Shown here piece by piece: positions 711 to 35,687 of a stretch of 35,687 nucleotides of DNA. Location: the IMG/VR virus record IMGVR_UViG_2690315992_000010, one strand, 5' to 3'. Source of the DNA: a virus (taxonomy: Duplodnaviria; Heunggongvirae; Uroviricota; Caudoviricetes). Positions within the stretch are counted from its first letter, which is position 1. Each line of letters begins with the position of its first letter. Made by a program: the position numbers and the translations under genes. Under the pieces are notes generated by a model that saw nothing but the letters and a program-made list of their open reading frames with translations, was not told the DNA's origin and searched no databases.

Positions 711-724
711 TTAATTTCTAATTT

Positions 725-750
725 GGTGGGTGTAATTCCCACCGCTTTTT
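725..750 (+). terminator. intrinsic terminator-like hairpin, copy B of the module
   Basis: GGTGGG-tgtaatt-CCCACC followed by GCTTTTT, then GGAGAA RBS and ATG at 767. Confidence 0.5.
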
Positions 751-766
751 AAATGGAGAATCAAAC

Positions 767-847
767 ATGTTAGCTTTTATCTCATTCGTGGGAGGTAGTC
801 TCACAACCATGATTAGTCTTTCTTATATTGTCGTTAGTATGGGGTGA
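767..847 (+). CDS. small hydrophobic peptide, 26 aa (MLAFISFVGGSLTTMISLSYIVVSMG)
   Basis: GGAGAA RBS 8 nt upstream of ATG; not in ORF track (too short); hydrophobic composition. Confidence 0.2.
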   Translation: MLAFISFVGGSLTTMISLSYIVVSMG

Positions 848-850
848 GCA

Positions 851-973
851 ATGAAACAATTTCATGATGGCATTTCATCTAAGACATTCAAGAAAGAATA
901 TTCGCTGTGTATTAACTGGATTGATTTGATTGGTGCGGTTGTGTTTGGTCTGATTATTAGCATTAACTTTTAA
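851..973 (+). CDS. small membrane peptide, 40 aa with hydrophobic C-terminal segment (IDLIGAVVFGLIISI)
   Basis: ATG 851 preceded by GGGGTGAG; stop TAA 971-973; not in ORF track. Confidence 0.25.
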   Translation: MKQFHDGISSKTFKKEYSLCINWIDLIGAVVFGLIISINF

Positions 974-1018
974 TGATATAAATATATCGTAATTCAAACA
1001 ACAAGAGGAAATTCTACT

Positions 1019-1432
1019 ATGAAAAAGATTATCGCTGGTGTTGTTCTTGCTCTGGGTTTGGTTGGTGCTGCAAATGCTAATACCTATTATGTGTGTAATT
1101 CCTACTTCGAACATAAAGGAGATGATACACAATATCTTCGTGATGGCGACCGTTATTATCATGCACCGTCTGGAAAATATCGTGGTTTTATCGGTGTGAA
1201 AGTTCGCGTGAATGATGATAATAGTCAATTTGCTTTCAACGATCCGGTATATGATAAGACAATCAAAAGCCCTAAATTGAAAGAAGATAAGAACGAGAAA
1301 GAAGAATATTATGGTTCCGAAGATGGTAAATCCTACATCAAGTATCTGCATTCTGTTGATGGCGCGCCTATATTTGATGTTAAAAAAGGTGATACGTCTT
1401 ATTCCCTGATTAGCTGCCGTGAAATTCTTTAA
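1019..1432 (+). CDS. secreted/periplasmic protein of unknown function (Sec signal peptide)
   Basis: Strong RBS AGAGGAAA before ATG 1019. N-terminus MKKIIAGVVLALGLVGAANA is a canonical signal peptide with AxA cleavage motif. Two Cys (positions 26 and 134) could form a disulfide. Confidence 0.6.
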   Translation: MKKIIAGVVLALGLVGAANANTYYVCNSYFEHKGDDTQYLRDGDRYYHAPSGKYRGFIGVKVRVNDDNSQFAFNDPVYDKTIKSPKLKEDKNEKEEYYGSEDGKSYIKYLHSVDGAPIFDVKKGDTSYSLISCREIL

Positions 1433-1446
1433 TCTTTAATCACCTA

Positions 1447-1486
1447 GCCCCTATCGTTATAATACGCGGTAGGGGCGTTTTTGTTT
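1447..1486 (+). terminator. hairpin with T-tract between secreted-protein gene and recombinase gene
   Basis: GCCCCTA...TAGGGGC stem around a TTATAATA centre, followed by GTTTTTGTTT. Could be a terminator/attenuator or a recombinase-associated palindrome. Confidence 0.4.
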
Positions 1487-1495
1487 GGAAATGGT

Positions 1496-3175
1496 ATGAA
1501 AACTAAACTGTATTCGTATATTCGTTTCTCGTCTATGCGTCAGAATGATGGTTCGAGTTATGAACGACAAATCAGGATGGCTAGAGAGATTGCGGTAAAG
1601 TATGACCTTGAACTGGTAAATGATTATCAGGATCTGGGTGTATCTGCGTTTAAGGGTGCTAACTCCAAAACAGGGGCGCTATCTCGTTTCCTTGATGCAA
1701 TAGGTAGATCCGTTCCTGTTGGTAGCTGGCTATTCATCGAAAACTTGGACCGTTTATCCCGTGCCGATATTGTCAGTGCGCAGGAGTTATTCCTTTCAAT
1801 CATCCGTAGGGGGATAACCATTGTTACTGGCATGGATAACAAGATCTACTCGCTGGATACTGTTACCGCTAACCCGATGGACCTGATGTTCTCCATCCTT
1901 TTATTCATCCGTGGTAATGAGGAAAGCCAGACTAAGCGCAATCGTACTAACTCAAGCGCACTGATTAAGATTAAAGCTCATCAAGAAAATCCACAAAATC
2001 CGGCTGTTGCAATCGAGGAAATTGGAAAGAATATGTGGTGGACTGATACCACATCTGGTTATGTGCTTCCTCATCCGGTCTTCTTCCCTATTGTTCAGGA
2101 AGTTGTGGAATTACGCAGGAATGGACGGTCAACCGCCGAGATACTGGATCACCTTAACGCGACATACACACCACCACCAGCCGCAAGTCACAAGAGGCAT
2201 TCAAACTGGTCACGGGCAATGATTGAAAGGTTGTTCCATACCCGCGCTTTGATTGGTATCAAGGAAATCTCTGTAGATGGCGTTAAGTATGAGTTAAAGG
2301 ATTATTATCCTCGTGTGCTAGATGACGCTGAGTTTTATCACCTTAAGAAAAGCATTGGTGTTAGAGCATGTAACTTTGGAGACAAAGAAGAAGTTAAACC
2401 TATTCCCTTGCTTAGTGGTGTTGGTCTATTGAAATGTGAACATTGCGGTTCCGCTATGGTTAAGGTGAAAGGAACAAACAGACGGCCTAACCAATATCGT
2501 TATTCATGCGATGCAATGCGCTCTAGTCGTATTGAATGTGTGCATACAAACTGGAGTTTTCGCGGCGACCAATTAGAGAAAGCTGTATTGCAATTGCTGG
2601 CTGATAAAATCTGGATTGCTGAAGATAAGGCTAATCCGGTTCCGGCTTTGAAAGTACAGATTGATGAAATATCACGCAAGATTGATAACCTGATTACCCT
2701 TTCTGCTATGACAGGAGCAACGAAGGAGCTAGCCGATCAGATTACTACCCTCAATAGCGAGCGTGAAACACTCTACAATCAAATTAAGATGGCAGAAGAG
2801 GAAATGTATTCTGTTGACTCTCAAGGCTGGGAGAAGCTCGCAGAATTTGATTTAGAAGATGTTTACAACGAGGATCGCATTAAGGTCCGGTTTAAGATTA
2901 AGCAAGCTCTAAAACGGATCGGGTGTAGCAGGATTGACAAGTACAAAAACTTGTTTGTACTGGAATACATCGATGGCAAGACCCAGAGAGTTGTAATAGA
3001 AAATTCAAGAGGACCGAGGAAAGGCCGGATCTTCGTTGATTTGAAGACTATCAATGATAGGCAGATTCTGGAGAGTAACGGGCTTGTTCTGCATCCATGT
3101 TTAGACATGCTGACAGATAAGAACTGGAAACCAGAAGAAGAAATACCAGGTCCATTACAGGAATTTGGAATTTAA
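1496..3175 (+). CDS. large serine recombinase (putative serine integrase)
   Basis: N-terminal resolvase-type catalytic domain (YIRFSSMRQ...SYERQ, GVSAFKG, ENLDRLSRA), then recombinase domain, Cys-rich zinc-ribbon (CEHCGS...YRYSCD...CVH) and coiled-coil; 559 aa from ATG 1496. Track start 1481 is TTG; ATG 1496 is in frame. Confidence 0.8.
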   Translation: MKTKLYSYIRFSSMRQNDGSSYERQIRMAREIAVKYDLELVNDYQDLGVSAFKGANSKTGALSRFLDAIGRSVPVGSWLFIENLDRLSRADIVSAQELFLSIIRRGITIVTGMDNKIYSLDTVTANPMDLMFSILLFIRGNEESQTKRNRTNSSALIKIKAHQENPQNPAVAIEEIGKNMWWTDTTSGYVLPHPVFFPIVQEVVELRRNGRSTAEILDHLNATYTPPPAASHKRHSNWSRAMIERLFHTRALIGIKEISVDGVKYELKDYYPRVLDDAEFYHLKKSIGVRACNFGDKEEVKPIPLLSGVGLLKCEHCGSAMVKVKGTNRRPNQYRYSCDAMRSSRIECVHTNWSFRGDQLEKAVLQLLADKIWIAEDKANPVPALKVQIDEISRKIDNLITLSAMTGATKELADQITTLNSERETLYNQIKMAEEEMYSVDSQGWEKLAEFDLEDVYNEDRIKVRFKIKQALKRIGCSRIDKYKNLFVLEYIDGKTQRVVIENSRGPRKGRIFVDLKTINDRQILESNGLVLHPCLDMLTDKNWKPEEEIPGPLQEFGI

Positions 3176-18800: not shown

Positions 18801-19229
18801 ATTTTTATTAGCGTTGATGGTATCCGACAATTCAGCTTTAACACCAGCAAGATCGGAAGCAGCTTTATTTTTATTGGCCTCGATTGTCGCGTCGGTTTCG
18901 CGTTTAATTACATCAACTTTATTGTTAATTTCTGCGTGATTTGCTGCGATGGTTGCATCAGTAGTTTGTTTAATTTCATCTACTTTAGCGTGAATATTGC
19001 GGTCGTTTGCTGCAATTGTGCTATCTAATTCTTTCTTGTTAGCATCAACTTTAGATTCTAGTGCCGCGTGAGTTTCAGGAGAAACAGAGATTTGAACTAC
19101 TTCATGATCTCGGTCTTTGGTAAAAATAACATGGTCTTTAAGGTTGATTGCTACCTCACCGACCTGTAATTGTTCCGGCGTTGGTTTTTTGCCAGAAACA
19201 TTAGTTCGTTTAAATTGGATTGATTGCAT
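15804..19229 (-). CDS. long (side) tail fibre with C-terminal intramolecular chaperone / S74 autoproteolytic domain
   Basis: 1141 aa; N-terminal ~33-aa repeat units (DxTIAAN...KVDxIKxxTD); C-terminus ...GRELGVIAQDVEKVMPEAVHV...TISVSSINALFVKAFQEL matches the chaperone domain of endosialidase/L-shaped-fibre type proteins. Confidence 0.8.
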   Translation of the reverse strand: MQSIQFKRTNVSGKKPTPEQLQVGEVAINLKDHVIFTKDRDHEVVQISVSPETHAALESKVDANKKELDSTIAANDRNIHAKVDEIKQTTDATIAANHAEINNKVDVIKRETDATIEANKNKAASDLAGVKAELSDTINANKNAAAVATQELDTRINKKVDDIKSRTDATIASNHKAINDKVDLIKAETDRTIAANQAYAENQLTDTYNNLTGVIAANKQEAADSVAALTRDVEAKNTAIHSKIDNNKVYTDSELARLESRIDAADGSADGKYIKKHVNTYTDGYLLSKTANYFDDPNARNLDYFGAFRMNDLAGHIAMILHVPHPSGVNHARGFEFTYGSNPHATVRTYGYDELGNLSYSHRMYHEGDKPTPAEIGAYSKAEIDRLFQKTLNFGIEGGWFKLGSLTLPQQHGRSAKIRLVGGNGYNVGMNGQANIIELVIRCGNNSPKGVVFNAYYSIWYHEQHFCAIPTDGDNYDLYAYYGAHTGFVLAEYQVSSGGVSLNLLDTPEYLGGEKPVADEIFDALNISSFNNVSNRGTLNFAGNHQGQYDIEHMNEQQTNSKKMLRRFRSSAPATIWHESVDDQNYRLATGYDDVNQQLLLSAATGLHVKRLTLDGGVGNAGIDIRRGPNESSHFNFMDYRTGQDVRNGWFGFGDLTTKDFIWWNDNGQNSINLIEDGELHITGGKGQKIVMNSEVALSENARLAVKGGNYGLMLRNDGSSFHILTTDLKDSFGSWNNRRPFSYDFADGGLYLGGTATARCLHLGIDGSTRLEDNLFFKAGSRQSMDYMELVHWGASNTGRNNVLSLRDSKGFLAEFERLWDNTTKNTFFGKMKINRGSDAIIMNAESGDSSVYLLGTCADNNNWYIGKGGGDNGLAFYSYATNAAINLTNAGDIALSPKGVEMVHVNNARLYVHGERWTASQPGDWGNQWRVEAPIFVDHGYVGQDCYYPIVKARSLITNQGYTTAVDFGMRRIPNNWGQAIIRVGSAENSPDNGHPQAVFEFHHDGFFYTPGNGSFNDVHIRSDERLKINKEELEEGALDKLNSLTVYSYDKVKSLSDDTVVGRELGVIAQDVEKVMPEAVHVCSDGDTENPGEIKTISVSSINALFVKAFQELTTKYDAMNEELKAVKAELAAIKSCK

Positions 19230-34324: not shown

Positions 34325-35104
34325 ATGAAAAACATTATCGCTGCTATCGTGCTTTCTGCTACTGCTTTCGGTGCTGATGCTGCGTCCTTTGATTGCACTA
34401 AGGCTACTACCAAATCAGAGAAGTTTATTTGTGCTAACGAGTCTATCTCCGCACTGGATTCGAAACTTCATGAAGTATATGTTAAAGCTGTTAAGATTGA
34501 TCCATCTCTGAAACAAGAGCAACGCAACTGGAATAAAACTGTTCGTGATACAATGATCAATATCGGGCAGATTCAGCCACTGGAGGCTGTATACAACGCT
34601 CAAATCCAAAACTTGATGAATGTATTATCTAAAGAAGAAACCGCGTCAGAGAGCGATTCAGAGACTTCTGCGAAGGTTGAAGAAGAACAACCGAAACAGG
34701 AAGAAGTAAAGAAACTGAATGTTACCGCGATTTACGCATGTACTACAAAATTTACATGGAAAGTTATCGATGGTGAGGAAACAGAAGCTGTAAAAGATAA
34801 ACTCTACGGAAACAAAACTTTTGATAATAACGGCGGTAAACTTAAGATCAAAATGGTAGACGATGTTCCGGTATCTTTTGTGTATTCCGACAAGTATGAT
34901 GTTTATAAATCAAGTCTCAAGCCATCTAAAGAGAATCCAAACGCAATGGAAGGTAAATCCAAACAGGATACTATTGGACGTGTTAACACTTATAACATCT
35001 GGGTAAGCAAAAAAGGTGACATGCGTCTTGAAGTAATTGAACCAAAATTTGATTCTGAATATAAACACACTCAATTTGCATGTGACATGGTAGACGCAGA
35101 GTAA
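34325..35104 (+). CDS. secreted protein with DUF1311 / LprI-like N-terminal domain
   Basis: Signal peptide MKNIIAAIVLSATAFGADA; SFDCTKATTKSEKFICANESISALDSKLHEVY matches the conserved Cys-containing DUF1311 signature; AGAGG RBS. Confidence 0.55.
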   Translation: MKNIIAAIVLSATAFGADAASFDCTKATTKSEKFICANESISALDSKLHEVYVKAVKIDPSLKQEQRNWNKTVRDTMINIGQIQPLEAVYNAQIQNLMNVLSKEETASESDSETSAKVEEEQPKQEEVKKLNVTAIYACTTKFTWKVIDGEETEAVKDKLYGNKTFDNNGGKLKIKMVDDVPVSFVYSDKYDVYKSSLKPSKENPNAMEGKSKQDTIGRVNTYNIWVSKKGDMRLEVIEPKFDSEYKHTQFACDMVDAE

Positions 35105-35336: not shown

Positions 35337-35687
35337 TTATTTTGGGTTGACTACATTCGGGTTGCCAATTCGCCAGGCTAACTCTTGCTGAGTGATTTCT
35401 GACTGTAAAAAAGCATTTAACAGCAATACTTTAGAGGCGACGCTCAAAGGTACTTCAATAAAGTGATCATGACTATTTAATGGCGAAGGTAACGGGATAA
35501 GCTCGTTATCTTCAAAATAAAAATCAAATGCGGTCAGTAAAGCATCTTTTGCCGCTTCCATCGCTTCAGCGACAGTTTCGCCCTGCGTCAACGCTTCAGG
35601 GATATCCACAAAAGAAACCATATAACCGCCTTCCGGCGCGGGTGTAAGAGTGACGGGATAACGCATAATTTCGACTGTCTCTCGCAT
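35337..35687 (-). CDS. hicB: HicB-family antitoxin, N-terminal domain only; C-terminal DNA-binding domain apparently truncated at junction with phage-like DNA
   Basis: MRYPVTLTPAPEGGYMVSFVDIPEALTQGETVAEAMEAAKDALLTAF... recognised as HicB N-terminal domain (recalled as near-identical to E. coli HicB; not verified). ORF ends ...ITQQELAWRIGNPNVVNPK* inside what should be the first helix of the HTH. Base composition and codon usage look more host-like here. Confidence 0.55.
   Translation of the reverse strand: MRETVEIMRYPVTLTPAPEGGYMVSFVDIPEALTQGETVAEAMEAAKDALLTAFDFYFEDNELIPLPSPLNSHDHFIEVPLSVASKVLLLNAFLQSEITQQELAWRIGNPNVVNPK

What the first reader, a model, noticed from the sequence alone, without database searches (positions are those of the whole stretch)
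1019..1432. Secreted 137-aa protein encoded immediately upstream of the serine recombinase
Periplasmic or surface proteins encoded by prophages are often superinfection-exclusion, receptor-masking or host-fitness factors; this one has no recognisable domain.
Basis: inference. Interest (0 to 1): 0.4.

Follow-up and report, generated by a model that had tools for sequence, protein, structure and literature searches.

The report
Exported orphan beta-barrel prophage cargo gene
A real, well-conserved prophage gene makes a small protein predicted to be exported to the periplasm, with a new sequence family and a generic beta-barrel fold; it sits in a swappable "cargo slot" next to the integrase, and its function is still unknown, most likely an accessory protein acting on the cell envelope.

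Summary
Window 1019-1432 (+) is a genuine 137-aa gene (RefSeq WP_000719877.1, "hypothetical protein"). It lies 63 nt upstream of a large serine recombinase, at the left end of a 35-kb E. coli prophage inserted in hicB. It has a textbook Sec signal peptide (MKK / hydrophobic core / ANA|N). The mature part is hydrophilic, 117 aa, with two invariant cysteines. dN/dS is 0.05-0.16.

New finding: the gene is one of several interchangeable cargos. An invariant 45-nt leader and the same signal peptide, closed by an invariant terminator hairpin, carry this barrel in 26 E. coli genomes and an unrelated 81-aa exported protein in 27 others.

Best reading: a moron-type cassette encoding a periplasmic binding or blocking protein. 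Superinfection exclusion is plausible but untested. Cargo type does not track tail alleles. This is a new member of a known kind, of modest interest.

The parts
724..744 (+). Terminator-like hairpin plus T-run after the 145-aa gene. It marks the upstream boundary of the small-ORF/cargo unit.
   Evidence: 7-bp stem, 5 GC pairs, CTTTTT tail. Conserved in L003.
767..847 (+). ORF26, a 26-aa fully hydrophobic peptide (MLAFISFVGGSLTTMISLSYIVVSMG). It is unannotated in RefSeq and conserved upstream of every cargo type.
   Evidence: The diverged Salmonella copy keeps its length and hydrophobic character.
851..973 (+). ORF40, a 40-aa peptide with a basic N-terminus and a C-terminal transmembrane segment (MKQFHDGISSKTFKK...IDLIGAVVFGLIISINF). 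It is unannotated in RefSeq and conserved upstream of every cargo type.
   Evidence: KD 2.19 over residues 24-40.
974..1018 (+). Nearly invariant 45-nt leader. It contains the palindrome GATATAaaTATATC (975-988), which holds a -10-like TATAAA (977-982, preceded by TG in the window), and the SD AGAGGA (1004-1009). It is the putative promoter and 5'UTR of the cargo gene.
   Evidence: The leader is almost invariant across lineages whose cargo proteins are only 31-65% identical or unrelated. Promoter function is inferred, not shown; the consensus scan did not call a promoter here.
1019..1078 (+). Signal-peptide coding part (aa 1-20, MKKIIAGVVLALGLVGAANA). This part is shared at the DNA level with the unrelated 81-aa cargo.
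1079..1432 (+). Mature domain (aa 21-137, 13.6 kDa, pI 5.9) plus stop codon. It is predicted to be an all-beta barrel. Invariant residues are C26 and C133 and, within the core stretch D79-K88 (DKTIKSPKLK, invariant among the six closest sequences), S84, K86 and L87.
1447..1486 (+). Intrinsic terminator: an 11-bp stem (7 GC pairs), an 8-nt loop containing TATAAT (1458-1463), then GTTTTTGTTT. It is invariant in four lineages and insulates the cargo gene from the integrase gene.
   Evidence: MFE -21.9 kcal/mol, z = -2.5.
1496..3175 (+). Large serine recombinase (the prophage integrase), the constant downstream neighbour of the slot.

Best explanation
The gene is an autonomous accessory ('moron'-type) cassette of a temperate enterobacterial phage.

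Proposed sequence of events:
- It is probably transcribed from the conserved leader just upstream, and transcription stops at the hairpin in front of the integrase gene.
- The product is a Sec-exported pre-protein. Signal peptidase I is predicted to cleave after Ala20.
- The 117-residue mature protein is predicted to fold in the periplasm into a small soluble beta-barrel. Cys26 on the first strand and Cys133 on the last strand probably form a disulfide.
- It is inferred to work by binding. The conserved segment around DKTIKSPKL would contact an envelope or incoming-phage component and block it.
- The most likely biological role is protection of the lysogen's envelope against other phages, that is, superinfection exclusion at the periplasmic step of entry.

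How well each step is supported:
- Shown: a real gene under purifying selection, its position, terminator and conserved leader, interchangeable cargo in the slot, and an orphan sequence family.
- Predicted from sequence only: signal-peptide features and the fold.
- Inferred: expression in the lysogen, disulfide formation, binding activity, the target, and the exclusion phenotype.
For: Gene reality and selection.

Export signal and soluble mature part. The fold starts at residue 21.

Confident all-beta model, reproduced with a deeper alignment (five models at pLDDT 83.6-87.6).

BFVD matches are exported proteins and lipoproteins of other phages.

The most distant homologue is a lipoprotein version in the same slot.

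The family occurs only directly upstream of the serine integrase, near the prophage end, in 8 of 8 contexts.

Cassette architecture and cargo swapping:
- Invariant leader and terminator around variable cargo.
- Same signal peptide on an unrelated 81-aa protein.
- 26 versus 27 E. coli genomes carry the two cargos, never both.
- The slot is present in 57 of 5426 complete genomes.

Holin-like and Rz-like ORFs sit beside the endolysin on the other strand, so a lysis cassette is already present.

From established knowledge: int-proximal, terminator-flanked prophage genes for exported proteins are typically lysogenic-conversion or exclusion genes. Examples are P22 gtr/sie, lambda bor/lom, T5 llp, phi80 cor and T4 sp.
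Against: There are no expression data, and the promoter is only a conserved -10-like element. Its TG is not invariant (L015 and L028 have CG), and the consensus scan did not call it.

There is no sequence relationship to any known exclusion or defence protein.

Cargo type is independent of the phage's own tail-tip and tail-fibre alleles (Fisher p = 1.0 and 0.41). So there is no sign of co-evolution with its own entry apparatus.

After excision the gene lies inside the + strand early/accessory arm, so early lytic expression is equally possible.
Confidence: 0.4

Rival explanations
1. It is a host-fitness or virulence conversion factor: a periplasmic barrel that binds a small ligand (lipocalin or YceI-like) or protects against host-derived stress, with no role in phage-phage competition.
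Against: The family is confined to one phage lineage and one slot, and it alternates with unrelated cargo. No ligand-binding family profile matches. No pathotype restriction is visible in the strain list.
Confidence: 0.2
2. It is a periplasmic inhibitor of peptidoglycan hydrolases, analogous to PliC/MliC. It would block lysozyme-type enzymes, either animal lysozyme or the tail lysozymes of incoming phages. It would spare the phage's own M15 peptidase endolysin.
Confidence: 0.1
3. It acts in the phage's own lytic cycle, for example as a periplasmic lysis regulator or outer-membrane disruption accessory, together with the two tiny membrane peptides encoded upstream.
For: ORF26 and ORF40 are conserved membrane peptides immediately upstream. 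In some relatives an extra cargo ORF has a TM segment plus coiled coil and a weak Rz-like spanin hit (phrog_739, E = 0.0024).
Against: Holin-like (56 aa) and Rz-like (92 aa) ORFs already lie beside the endolysin on the opposite strand. An essential lysis component would not be replaced by unrelated proteins or by an endonuclease gene in sister phages. The soluble forms lack the membrane anchor that spanins need.
Confidence: 0.08
4. It interferes with the Ton system by mimicking part of the ExbD periplasmic domain, so blocking TonB-dependent phages and colicins.
For: The family profile's best PDB hit is E. coli ExbD residues 58-89. About 12 of 26 residues are identical over the family's most conserved stretch (VKVRVNDDNSQFAFNDPVYDKT against VYLSVKADNSMFIGNDPVTDET).
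Against: It is not significant (E = 0.15 against the PDB). No Pfam ExbD hit exists. The overall folds differ: all-beta here against the alpha/beta fold of ExbD. The known TonB D-box contact is ExbD 130-134, not this stretch (PMC10907165). Impairing Ton would be costly to the host.
Confidence: 0.03
5. It is an outer-membrane 8-stranded beta-barrel of the Lom/Ail/OmpX/OmpW type.
Against: The mature chain is only 117 aa and strongly hydrophilic (mean KD -1.0). It has no membrane-length hydrophobic surface, ends in ...CREIL rather than an aromatic beta-signal, and has paired cysteines. No OMP family profile matches.
Confidence: 0.03

Closest known systems
Phage 'morons' and int-proximal lysogenic-conversion genes (lambda bor/lom, HK97/HK022 morons, P22 gtrABC/sie region)
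   Same: It is a single accessory ORF with its own terminator and a probable own promoter, placed between conserved phage genes next to the integrase. It is present in some relatives and replaced in others, and it encodes an envelope protein.
   Different: The sequence family is unrelated to any of these. Unusually, unrelated cargos share the leader and the signal-peptide coding sequence, so the exchange breakpoint lies at the signal-peptide cleavage site.
T4 Sp (spackle), the periplasmic superinfection-exclusion protein that inhibits the gp5 tail lysozyme
   Same: It is a small phage-encoded protein with a cleavable Sec signal peptide, predicted to be soluble in the periplasm.
   Different: There is no sequence similarity (tblastn against 50,697 phage records found nothing). 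The model is all-beta, whereas Sp is helical (my knowledge of the published structures). Activity was not tested.
Cor (phi80/N15/HK022) and Llp (T5) exclusion lipoproteins
   Same: They are small exported phage proteins. The most distant family member (P0014) is a lipoprotein with a weak Cor hit (E = 0.0065).
   Different: The Cor matches cover only the signal peptide and lipobox region (residues 1-38 and 1-53). The window protein has no lipobox.
PliC/MliC periplasmic and membrane-bound lysozyme inhibitors (Pfam PF09864), including Brucella PhiA and Neisseria ACP
   Different: No profile similarity, and the lysozyme-binding motifs are absent. The mature chain is about 30 residues longer. Non-inhibitor barrels match at least as well.
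Uncharacterised exported proteins and lipoproteins of jumbo and T4-like phages (Erwinia phages Kwan, Huxley and Joad, Salmonella phage SEGD1, Serratia phage PS2)
   Same: These are the best matches in the viral structure library (Foldseek prob about 1.0, TM about 0.5), so they share a similar small exported beta fold.
   Different: Sequence identity is 11-19%, TM-scores are only about 0.5, and none has a known function.

Membership tests
Sec (signal peptidase I) secretory pre-proteins | Positively charged n-region, a 10-15-residue hydrophobic h-region, small residues at -3 and -1, and no lipobox cysteine | tested here: met
   MKK (+2). IIAGVVLALGLV has KD 2.98. A18-x-A20 precedes N21. There is no [LVI][ASTVI][GAS]C motif. 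These features are conserved in 9 of 10 members; the tenth has the lipobox LTGC. No dedicated predictor was available, and export itself was not tested.
Phage moron / accessory cassette | Own transcription terminator downstream | tested here: met
   Hairpin 1447-1476 plus T-run. MFE -21.9 kcal/mol, z = -2.5. Invariant in four lineages.
Phage moron / accessory cassette | Own promoter active in the lysogen | tested here: inconclusive
   There is an invariant leader with TATAAA at 977-982. The consensus scan did not call a promoter there, and no expression data are available.
Phage moron / accessory cassette | Present in some and absent or replaced in other closely related phage genomes | tested here: met
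   The barrel is in 26 genomes, the 81-aa protein in 27, other cargo in the remainder of the 57 slot-carrying genomes, and an endonuclease in L038.
MliC/PliC lysozyme inhibitors (PF09864) | Match to the family profile | tested here: not met
   No Pfam hit for any of the 10 members at E<=10. hhalign against an E. coli, P. aeruginosa and Brucella MliC/PliC alignment gave probability 0.13%.
MliC/PliC lysozyme inhibitors (PF09864) | Conserved lysozyme-contacting motifs SxSGAxY and YxxxTKG | tested here: not met
   A regular-expression search of all 10 members found neither motif.
MliC/PliC lysozyme inhibitors (PF09864) | Eight-stranded antiparallel beta-barrel closed by a disulfide between terminal strands | tested here: inconclusive
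MliC/PliC lysozyme inhibitors (PF09864) | Inhibition of c-type lysozyme | not testable with these tools
   This needs an enzyme assay.
Cor superinfection-exclusion lipoproteins (phrog_1119) | Profile match over the mature protein, and a lipobox | tested here: not met
   E = 0.19, and the match covers residues 1-38 only, which is the signal peptide. No lipobox.
Known anti-phage defence proteins (PADLOC-DB) | Match to any defence-system model | tested here: not met
   No hit at E<=1 for the window protein, two homologues or the alternative cargo.
Ail/Lom/OmpX-type outer-membrane barrels | Family profile match, about 150 aa or more of amphipathic membrane-spanning strands, and a C-terminal aromatic beta-signal | tested here: not met
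   No Pfam hit. The mature part is 117 aa with mean KD -1.0, and the C-terminus is ...CREIL.

The most novel reading that the evidence does not exclude
The slot between the two tiny membrane-peptide ORFs and the serine integrase may be a dedicated exchange site for periplasmic anti-phage effectors. A fixed promoter, leader and signal-peptide module, closed by a fixed terminator, would be recombined with unrelated mature domains. Under this reading the beta-barrel found here founds a new family of periplasmic superinfection-exclusion proteins that intercept an incoming phage's ejection machinery. The rarer version of this reading is a new class of peptidoglycan-hydrolase inhibitor.
Probability: 0.25. 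Interest if true: 0.6.

Novelty: new member of a known kind. Interest (0 to 1): 0.35.

Why it matters
Few prophage-encoded exported proteins have a known activity, and those that do often decide which phages can infect a lysogen or how the lysogen survives in a host.

This locus offers a compact test case. About 1% of complete E. coli genomes carry the slot. It holds either this barrel or an unrelated protein behind the same signal peptide, so natural near-isogenic cargo swaps already exist for comparison.

If the barrel blocks phage entry or a cell-wall hydrolase, it would add a new periplasmic exclusion family and a confidently predicted fold. If it does nothing measurable, it remains one more orphan moron.

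Tried and rejected
Searches that found nothing:
- Pfam, PHROGs, NCBIfam and PADLOC on the protein, its homologues and the alternative cargo: only signal-peptide-level or non-significant hits.
- tblastn of the protein and of the 81-aa cargo against 50,697 phage records: no match.
- megablast of the locus against phage records: no match.
- Foldseek against the PDB: nothing with E<0.014. The afdb50 library was unavailable.
- Two scans of the species-representative genome collection: nothing.
- Rfam on 600-1700: only sub-threshold chance hits.
- Literature searches for the RefSeq accession, and for hicB + prophage + serine recombinase: nothing relevant.

Ideas tested and rejected:
- MliC/PliC membership: rejected by hhalign (probability 0.13%) and by absence of the motifs.
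- ExbD mimicry: the local similarity is not significant (E = 0.15). The one-pair BLAST E of 5e-5 does not survive database-size correction. The stretch is not the TonB D-box contact site.
- Diversifying selection as the reason the coding region is less conserved than its flanks: rejected, because dN/dS is 0.05-0.16. The pattern reflects old cargo alleles set between recombining conserved flanks.
- Coupling of cargo type to tail-tip or tail-fibre alleles, as expected for self-matched exclusion: no association. Cargo type is also not coupled to the integrase N-terminal allele (L036 against L015).
- The hairpin at 1447-1476 as attP: rejected, because it lies inside the prophage, about 1.5 kb from the hicB junction.
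- Hit P0013 (1456 aa, four repeats matching residues 99-128): judged to be beta-hairpin repeat similarity in a propeller-like protein, not homology.

Full report
**1. The observation**

Window 1019-1432 (+) is an ATG-initiated 137-codon ORF. A Shine-Dalgarno AGAGGA precedes it at 1004-1009, and an intrinsic terminator follows at 1447-1476. The next gene is a large serine recombinase with Resolvase, Recombinase and Zn_ribbon_recom domains. Its ATG is at 1496, the RefSeq start.

The window is 100% identical to the chromosome of E. coli O55:H7 DEC5A. There the ORF is annotated as WP_000719877.1, hypothetical protein. The window spans a whole 35.3-kb prophage. A C-terminal fragment of the antitoxin gene hicB lies just left of position 1. 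The N-terminal part of hicB, followed by an intact hicA, lies at the right end.

**2. It is a real gene**

A search of 5.8 billion protein clusters found six relatives. A profile search of 1.84 billion representatives found nine. Full-length members are 130-139 aa and 31-96% identical.

Eleven columns are invariant across the ten aligned members: M1, K2, G13, G16, C26, V64, F71, S84, K86, L87 and C133. The stretch DKTIKSPKLK is invariant among the six closest sequences.

Nei-Gojobori dN/dS between close alleles is 0.05-0.16. It is 0.12-0.39 between distant alleles, where dS is saturated. This is purifying selection on this frame. The 158-aa antisense ORF is not kept in relatives.

**3. Export**

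- The N-terminus has a +2 n-region (MKK).
- The hydrophobic core IIAGVVLALGLV has Kyte-Doolittle 2.98.
- An Ala-x-Ala site (A18-N19-A20) ends the signal peptide.
- There is no lipobox.
- The remaining 117 residues are hydrophilic: mean KD -1.0, no window above 0.13, 13.6 kDa, pI 5.9.

AlphaFold leaves residues 1-18 unstructured and starts the first strand at residue 21. I could not run a dedicated signal-peptide predictor, and export itself is untested. The prediction is a soluble periplasmic protein, not a surface protein.

**4. Fold**

Two AlphaFold runs, with 6 and 10 sequences, gave the same all-beta model (mean pLDDT 87.5 and 87.6, pTM 0.78). The mature part is mostly above pLDDT 90, and the second run gave five concordant models.

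Cys26 and Cys133 lie on the first and last strands, so a disulfide between them is likely.

**5. Family tests**

No Pfam, PHROG, NCBIfam or PADLOC model matches beyond the signal peptide.

The profile's best PDB sequence hit is a 26-residue stretch of E. coli ExbD (E = 0.15). It is not significant, and it does not coincide with the known TonB D-box contact site.

**6. Context: a cargo slot**

Every relative with readable context lies in the same place. The order is two tiny conserved ORFs (26 aa, fully hydrophobic; 40 aa with a C-terminal TM segment), a 45-nt leader, the exported ORF, a terminator, then the serine integrase. This slot lies close to the prophage-host junction. It is seen in E. 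coli, Salmonella and unnamed enterobacterial assemblies.

The leader and the terminator hairpin are nearly invariant, even between lineages whose proteins are 31-65% identical. Sliding-window identity shows that the mature-domain coding region and part of the integrase gene are old, diverged alleles set between conserved, recombining flanks.

In 13 of 23 IMG/VR relatives the same leader and the same signal peptide are fused to a completely unrelated 61-residue mature domain, giving an 81-aa ORF. Some relatives carry an additional 113-aa ORF with a TM segment and coiled coil, behind a duplicated leader. One relative carries an endonuclease gene instead. The most distant barrel homologue is a lipoprotein (LTGC) in the same slot.

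Counts among 5426 complete E. coli genomes:

| Feature | Genomes |
|---|---|
| Slot present | 57 |
| Barrel cargo | 26 |
| 81-aa cargo | 27 |
| Both cargos | 0 |

**7. What the cargo does not track**

Cargo type is independent of the prophage's tail-tip allele (Fisher p = 1.0 and 0.26) and of its tail-fibre allele (p = 0.41). It is also independent of the integrase N-terminal allele (L036 against L015). So there is no sign that the protein co-evolves with the phage's own entry apparatus.

Holin-like and Rz-like ORFs sit next to the M15 endolysin on the other strand. A core lysis role for the slot is therefore unlikely.

**8. Interpretation**

- Shown: a real gene under purifying selection, an orphan family, and a fixed slot with interchangeable cargo bounded by a conserved leader and terminator.
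- Predicted from sequence only: the Sec signal and the soluble beta-barrel.
- Inferred: the gene is a moron-type accessory cassette, and its product acts by binding something in the periplasm.

By analogy with other int-proximal exported prophage proteins, I favour protection of the lysogen against other phages at the periplasmic step of entry (about 0.4 for the whole package). The rivals, in order, are a host-fitness or ligand-binding factor (0.2), a peptidoglycan-hydrolase inhibitor (0.1), a lytic-cycle accessory (0.08), Ton interference (0.03) and an outer-membrane barrel (0.03).

**9. Verdict**

Its interpretation is plausible but unproven, and 'surface' or 'receptor-masking' is unlikely for a soluble periplasmic protein. 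This is a new sequence family within a known kind of element. The shared leader and signal-peptide cassette structure is a useful handle for experiments, but it is not a surprise to specialists. Interest 0.35.

Noticed in passing
window 767-847 and 851-973 (+): Two tiny ORFs (26 aa, fully hydrophobic; 40 aa with a basic N-terminus and C-terminal TM segment) are conserved upstream of every cargo type. This holds even in the diverged Salmonella relative, where they overlap by ATGA. They are not annotated in RefSeq, and their function is unknown.
   Followed up: partly
L015 700-945; L014 981-1322; L036 981-1599; L038 578-1624: Alternative contents of the same slot: an unrelated 81-aa exported protein using the identical signal peptide; an extra 113-aa TM plus coiled-coil ORF (weak Rz-like spanin hit, E = 0.0024) behind a duplicated leader; and in one contig a 348-aa endonuclease (phrog_681) replacing the cargo.
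   Followed up: partly
window 1447-1476: The terminator between the cargo gene and the integrase gene is invariant in four diverged lineages, including its 8-nt loop, which contains a perfect TATAAT (1458-1463). A loop has no reason to be conserved for termination alone, so this may be an embedded integrase promoter or a regulator site. L028 uses a different hairpin preceded by TGATATAAT.
   Followed up: partly
window 3165/3180-3437 (+): An unannotated 85-90-aa ORF lies directly after the integrase gene. Its N-terminus looks like a signal peptide (MKMIKILGLILSMNSCLALA|TVDQ), and it has no family match. In L002 and L003 other genes occupy this position.
   Followed up: partly
window 34325-35104 (+): The right prophage end encodes a 259-aa protein with a signal peptide and an LprI/DUF1311 domain (Pfam E = 1.2e-5; phrog_14799). 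RefSeq names it 'lysozyme inhibitor LprI family protein'. So both prophage ends carry genes for exported proteins.
   Followed up: partly
window 35337-35687 (-) and DNA just left of window position 1 (L001 19146-19265): The prophage is inserted inside the antitoxin gene hicB, while the toxin gene hicA stays intact. The junction leaves a 116-aa ORF made of the HicB N-terminal part plus a short phage-derived tail. Whether it still neutralises HicA was not examined.
   Followed up: no
window 16063-18366 (within tail-fibre gene 15804-19229, - strand): The tail-fibre gene of this temperate phage is 82-86% identical at the DNA level to the long-tail-fibre distal subunit (gp37) genes of virulent T-even-like phages (MIZ4, KFS-EC and others). 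This indicates recent exchange of receptor-binding modules.
   Followed up: no
window 1496-3175 compared with L015, L003 and L036: The serine integrase gene is mosaic. The first roughly 150 codons (catalytic domain) occur as two diverged alleles joined to nearly identical downstream parts, and these alleles assort independently of the cargo type.
   Followed up: partly
window 9930-10703 (-): A NUMOD3-domain (homing-endonuclease-type) gene sits inside the tail gene cluster. Related phages carry T5orf172/endonuclease genes at other positions (L015 2762-3901).
   Followed up: no
window 1196-1273 (aa 60-85): The family's most conserved stretch is locally similar to E. coli ExbD residues 64-87 (about 12 of 26 identical; E = 0.15 against the PDB). 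It is not significant, and it is not the TonB D-box contact site.
   Followed up: yes
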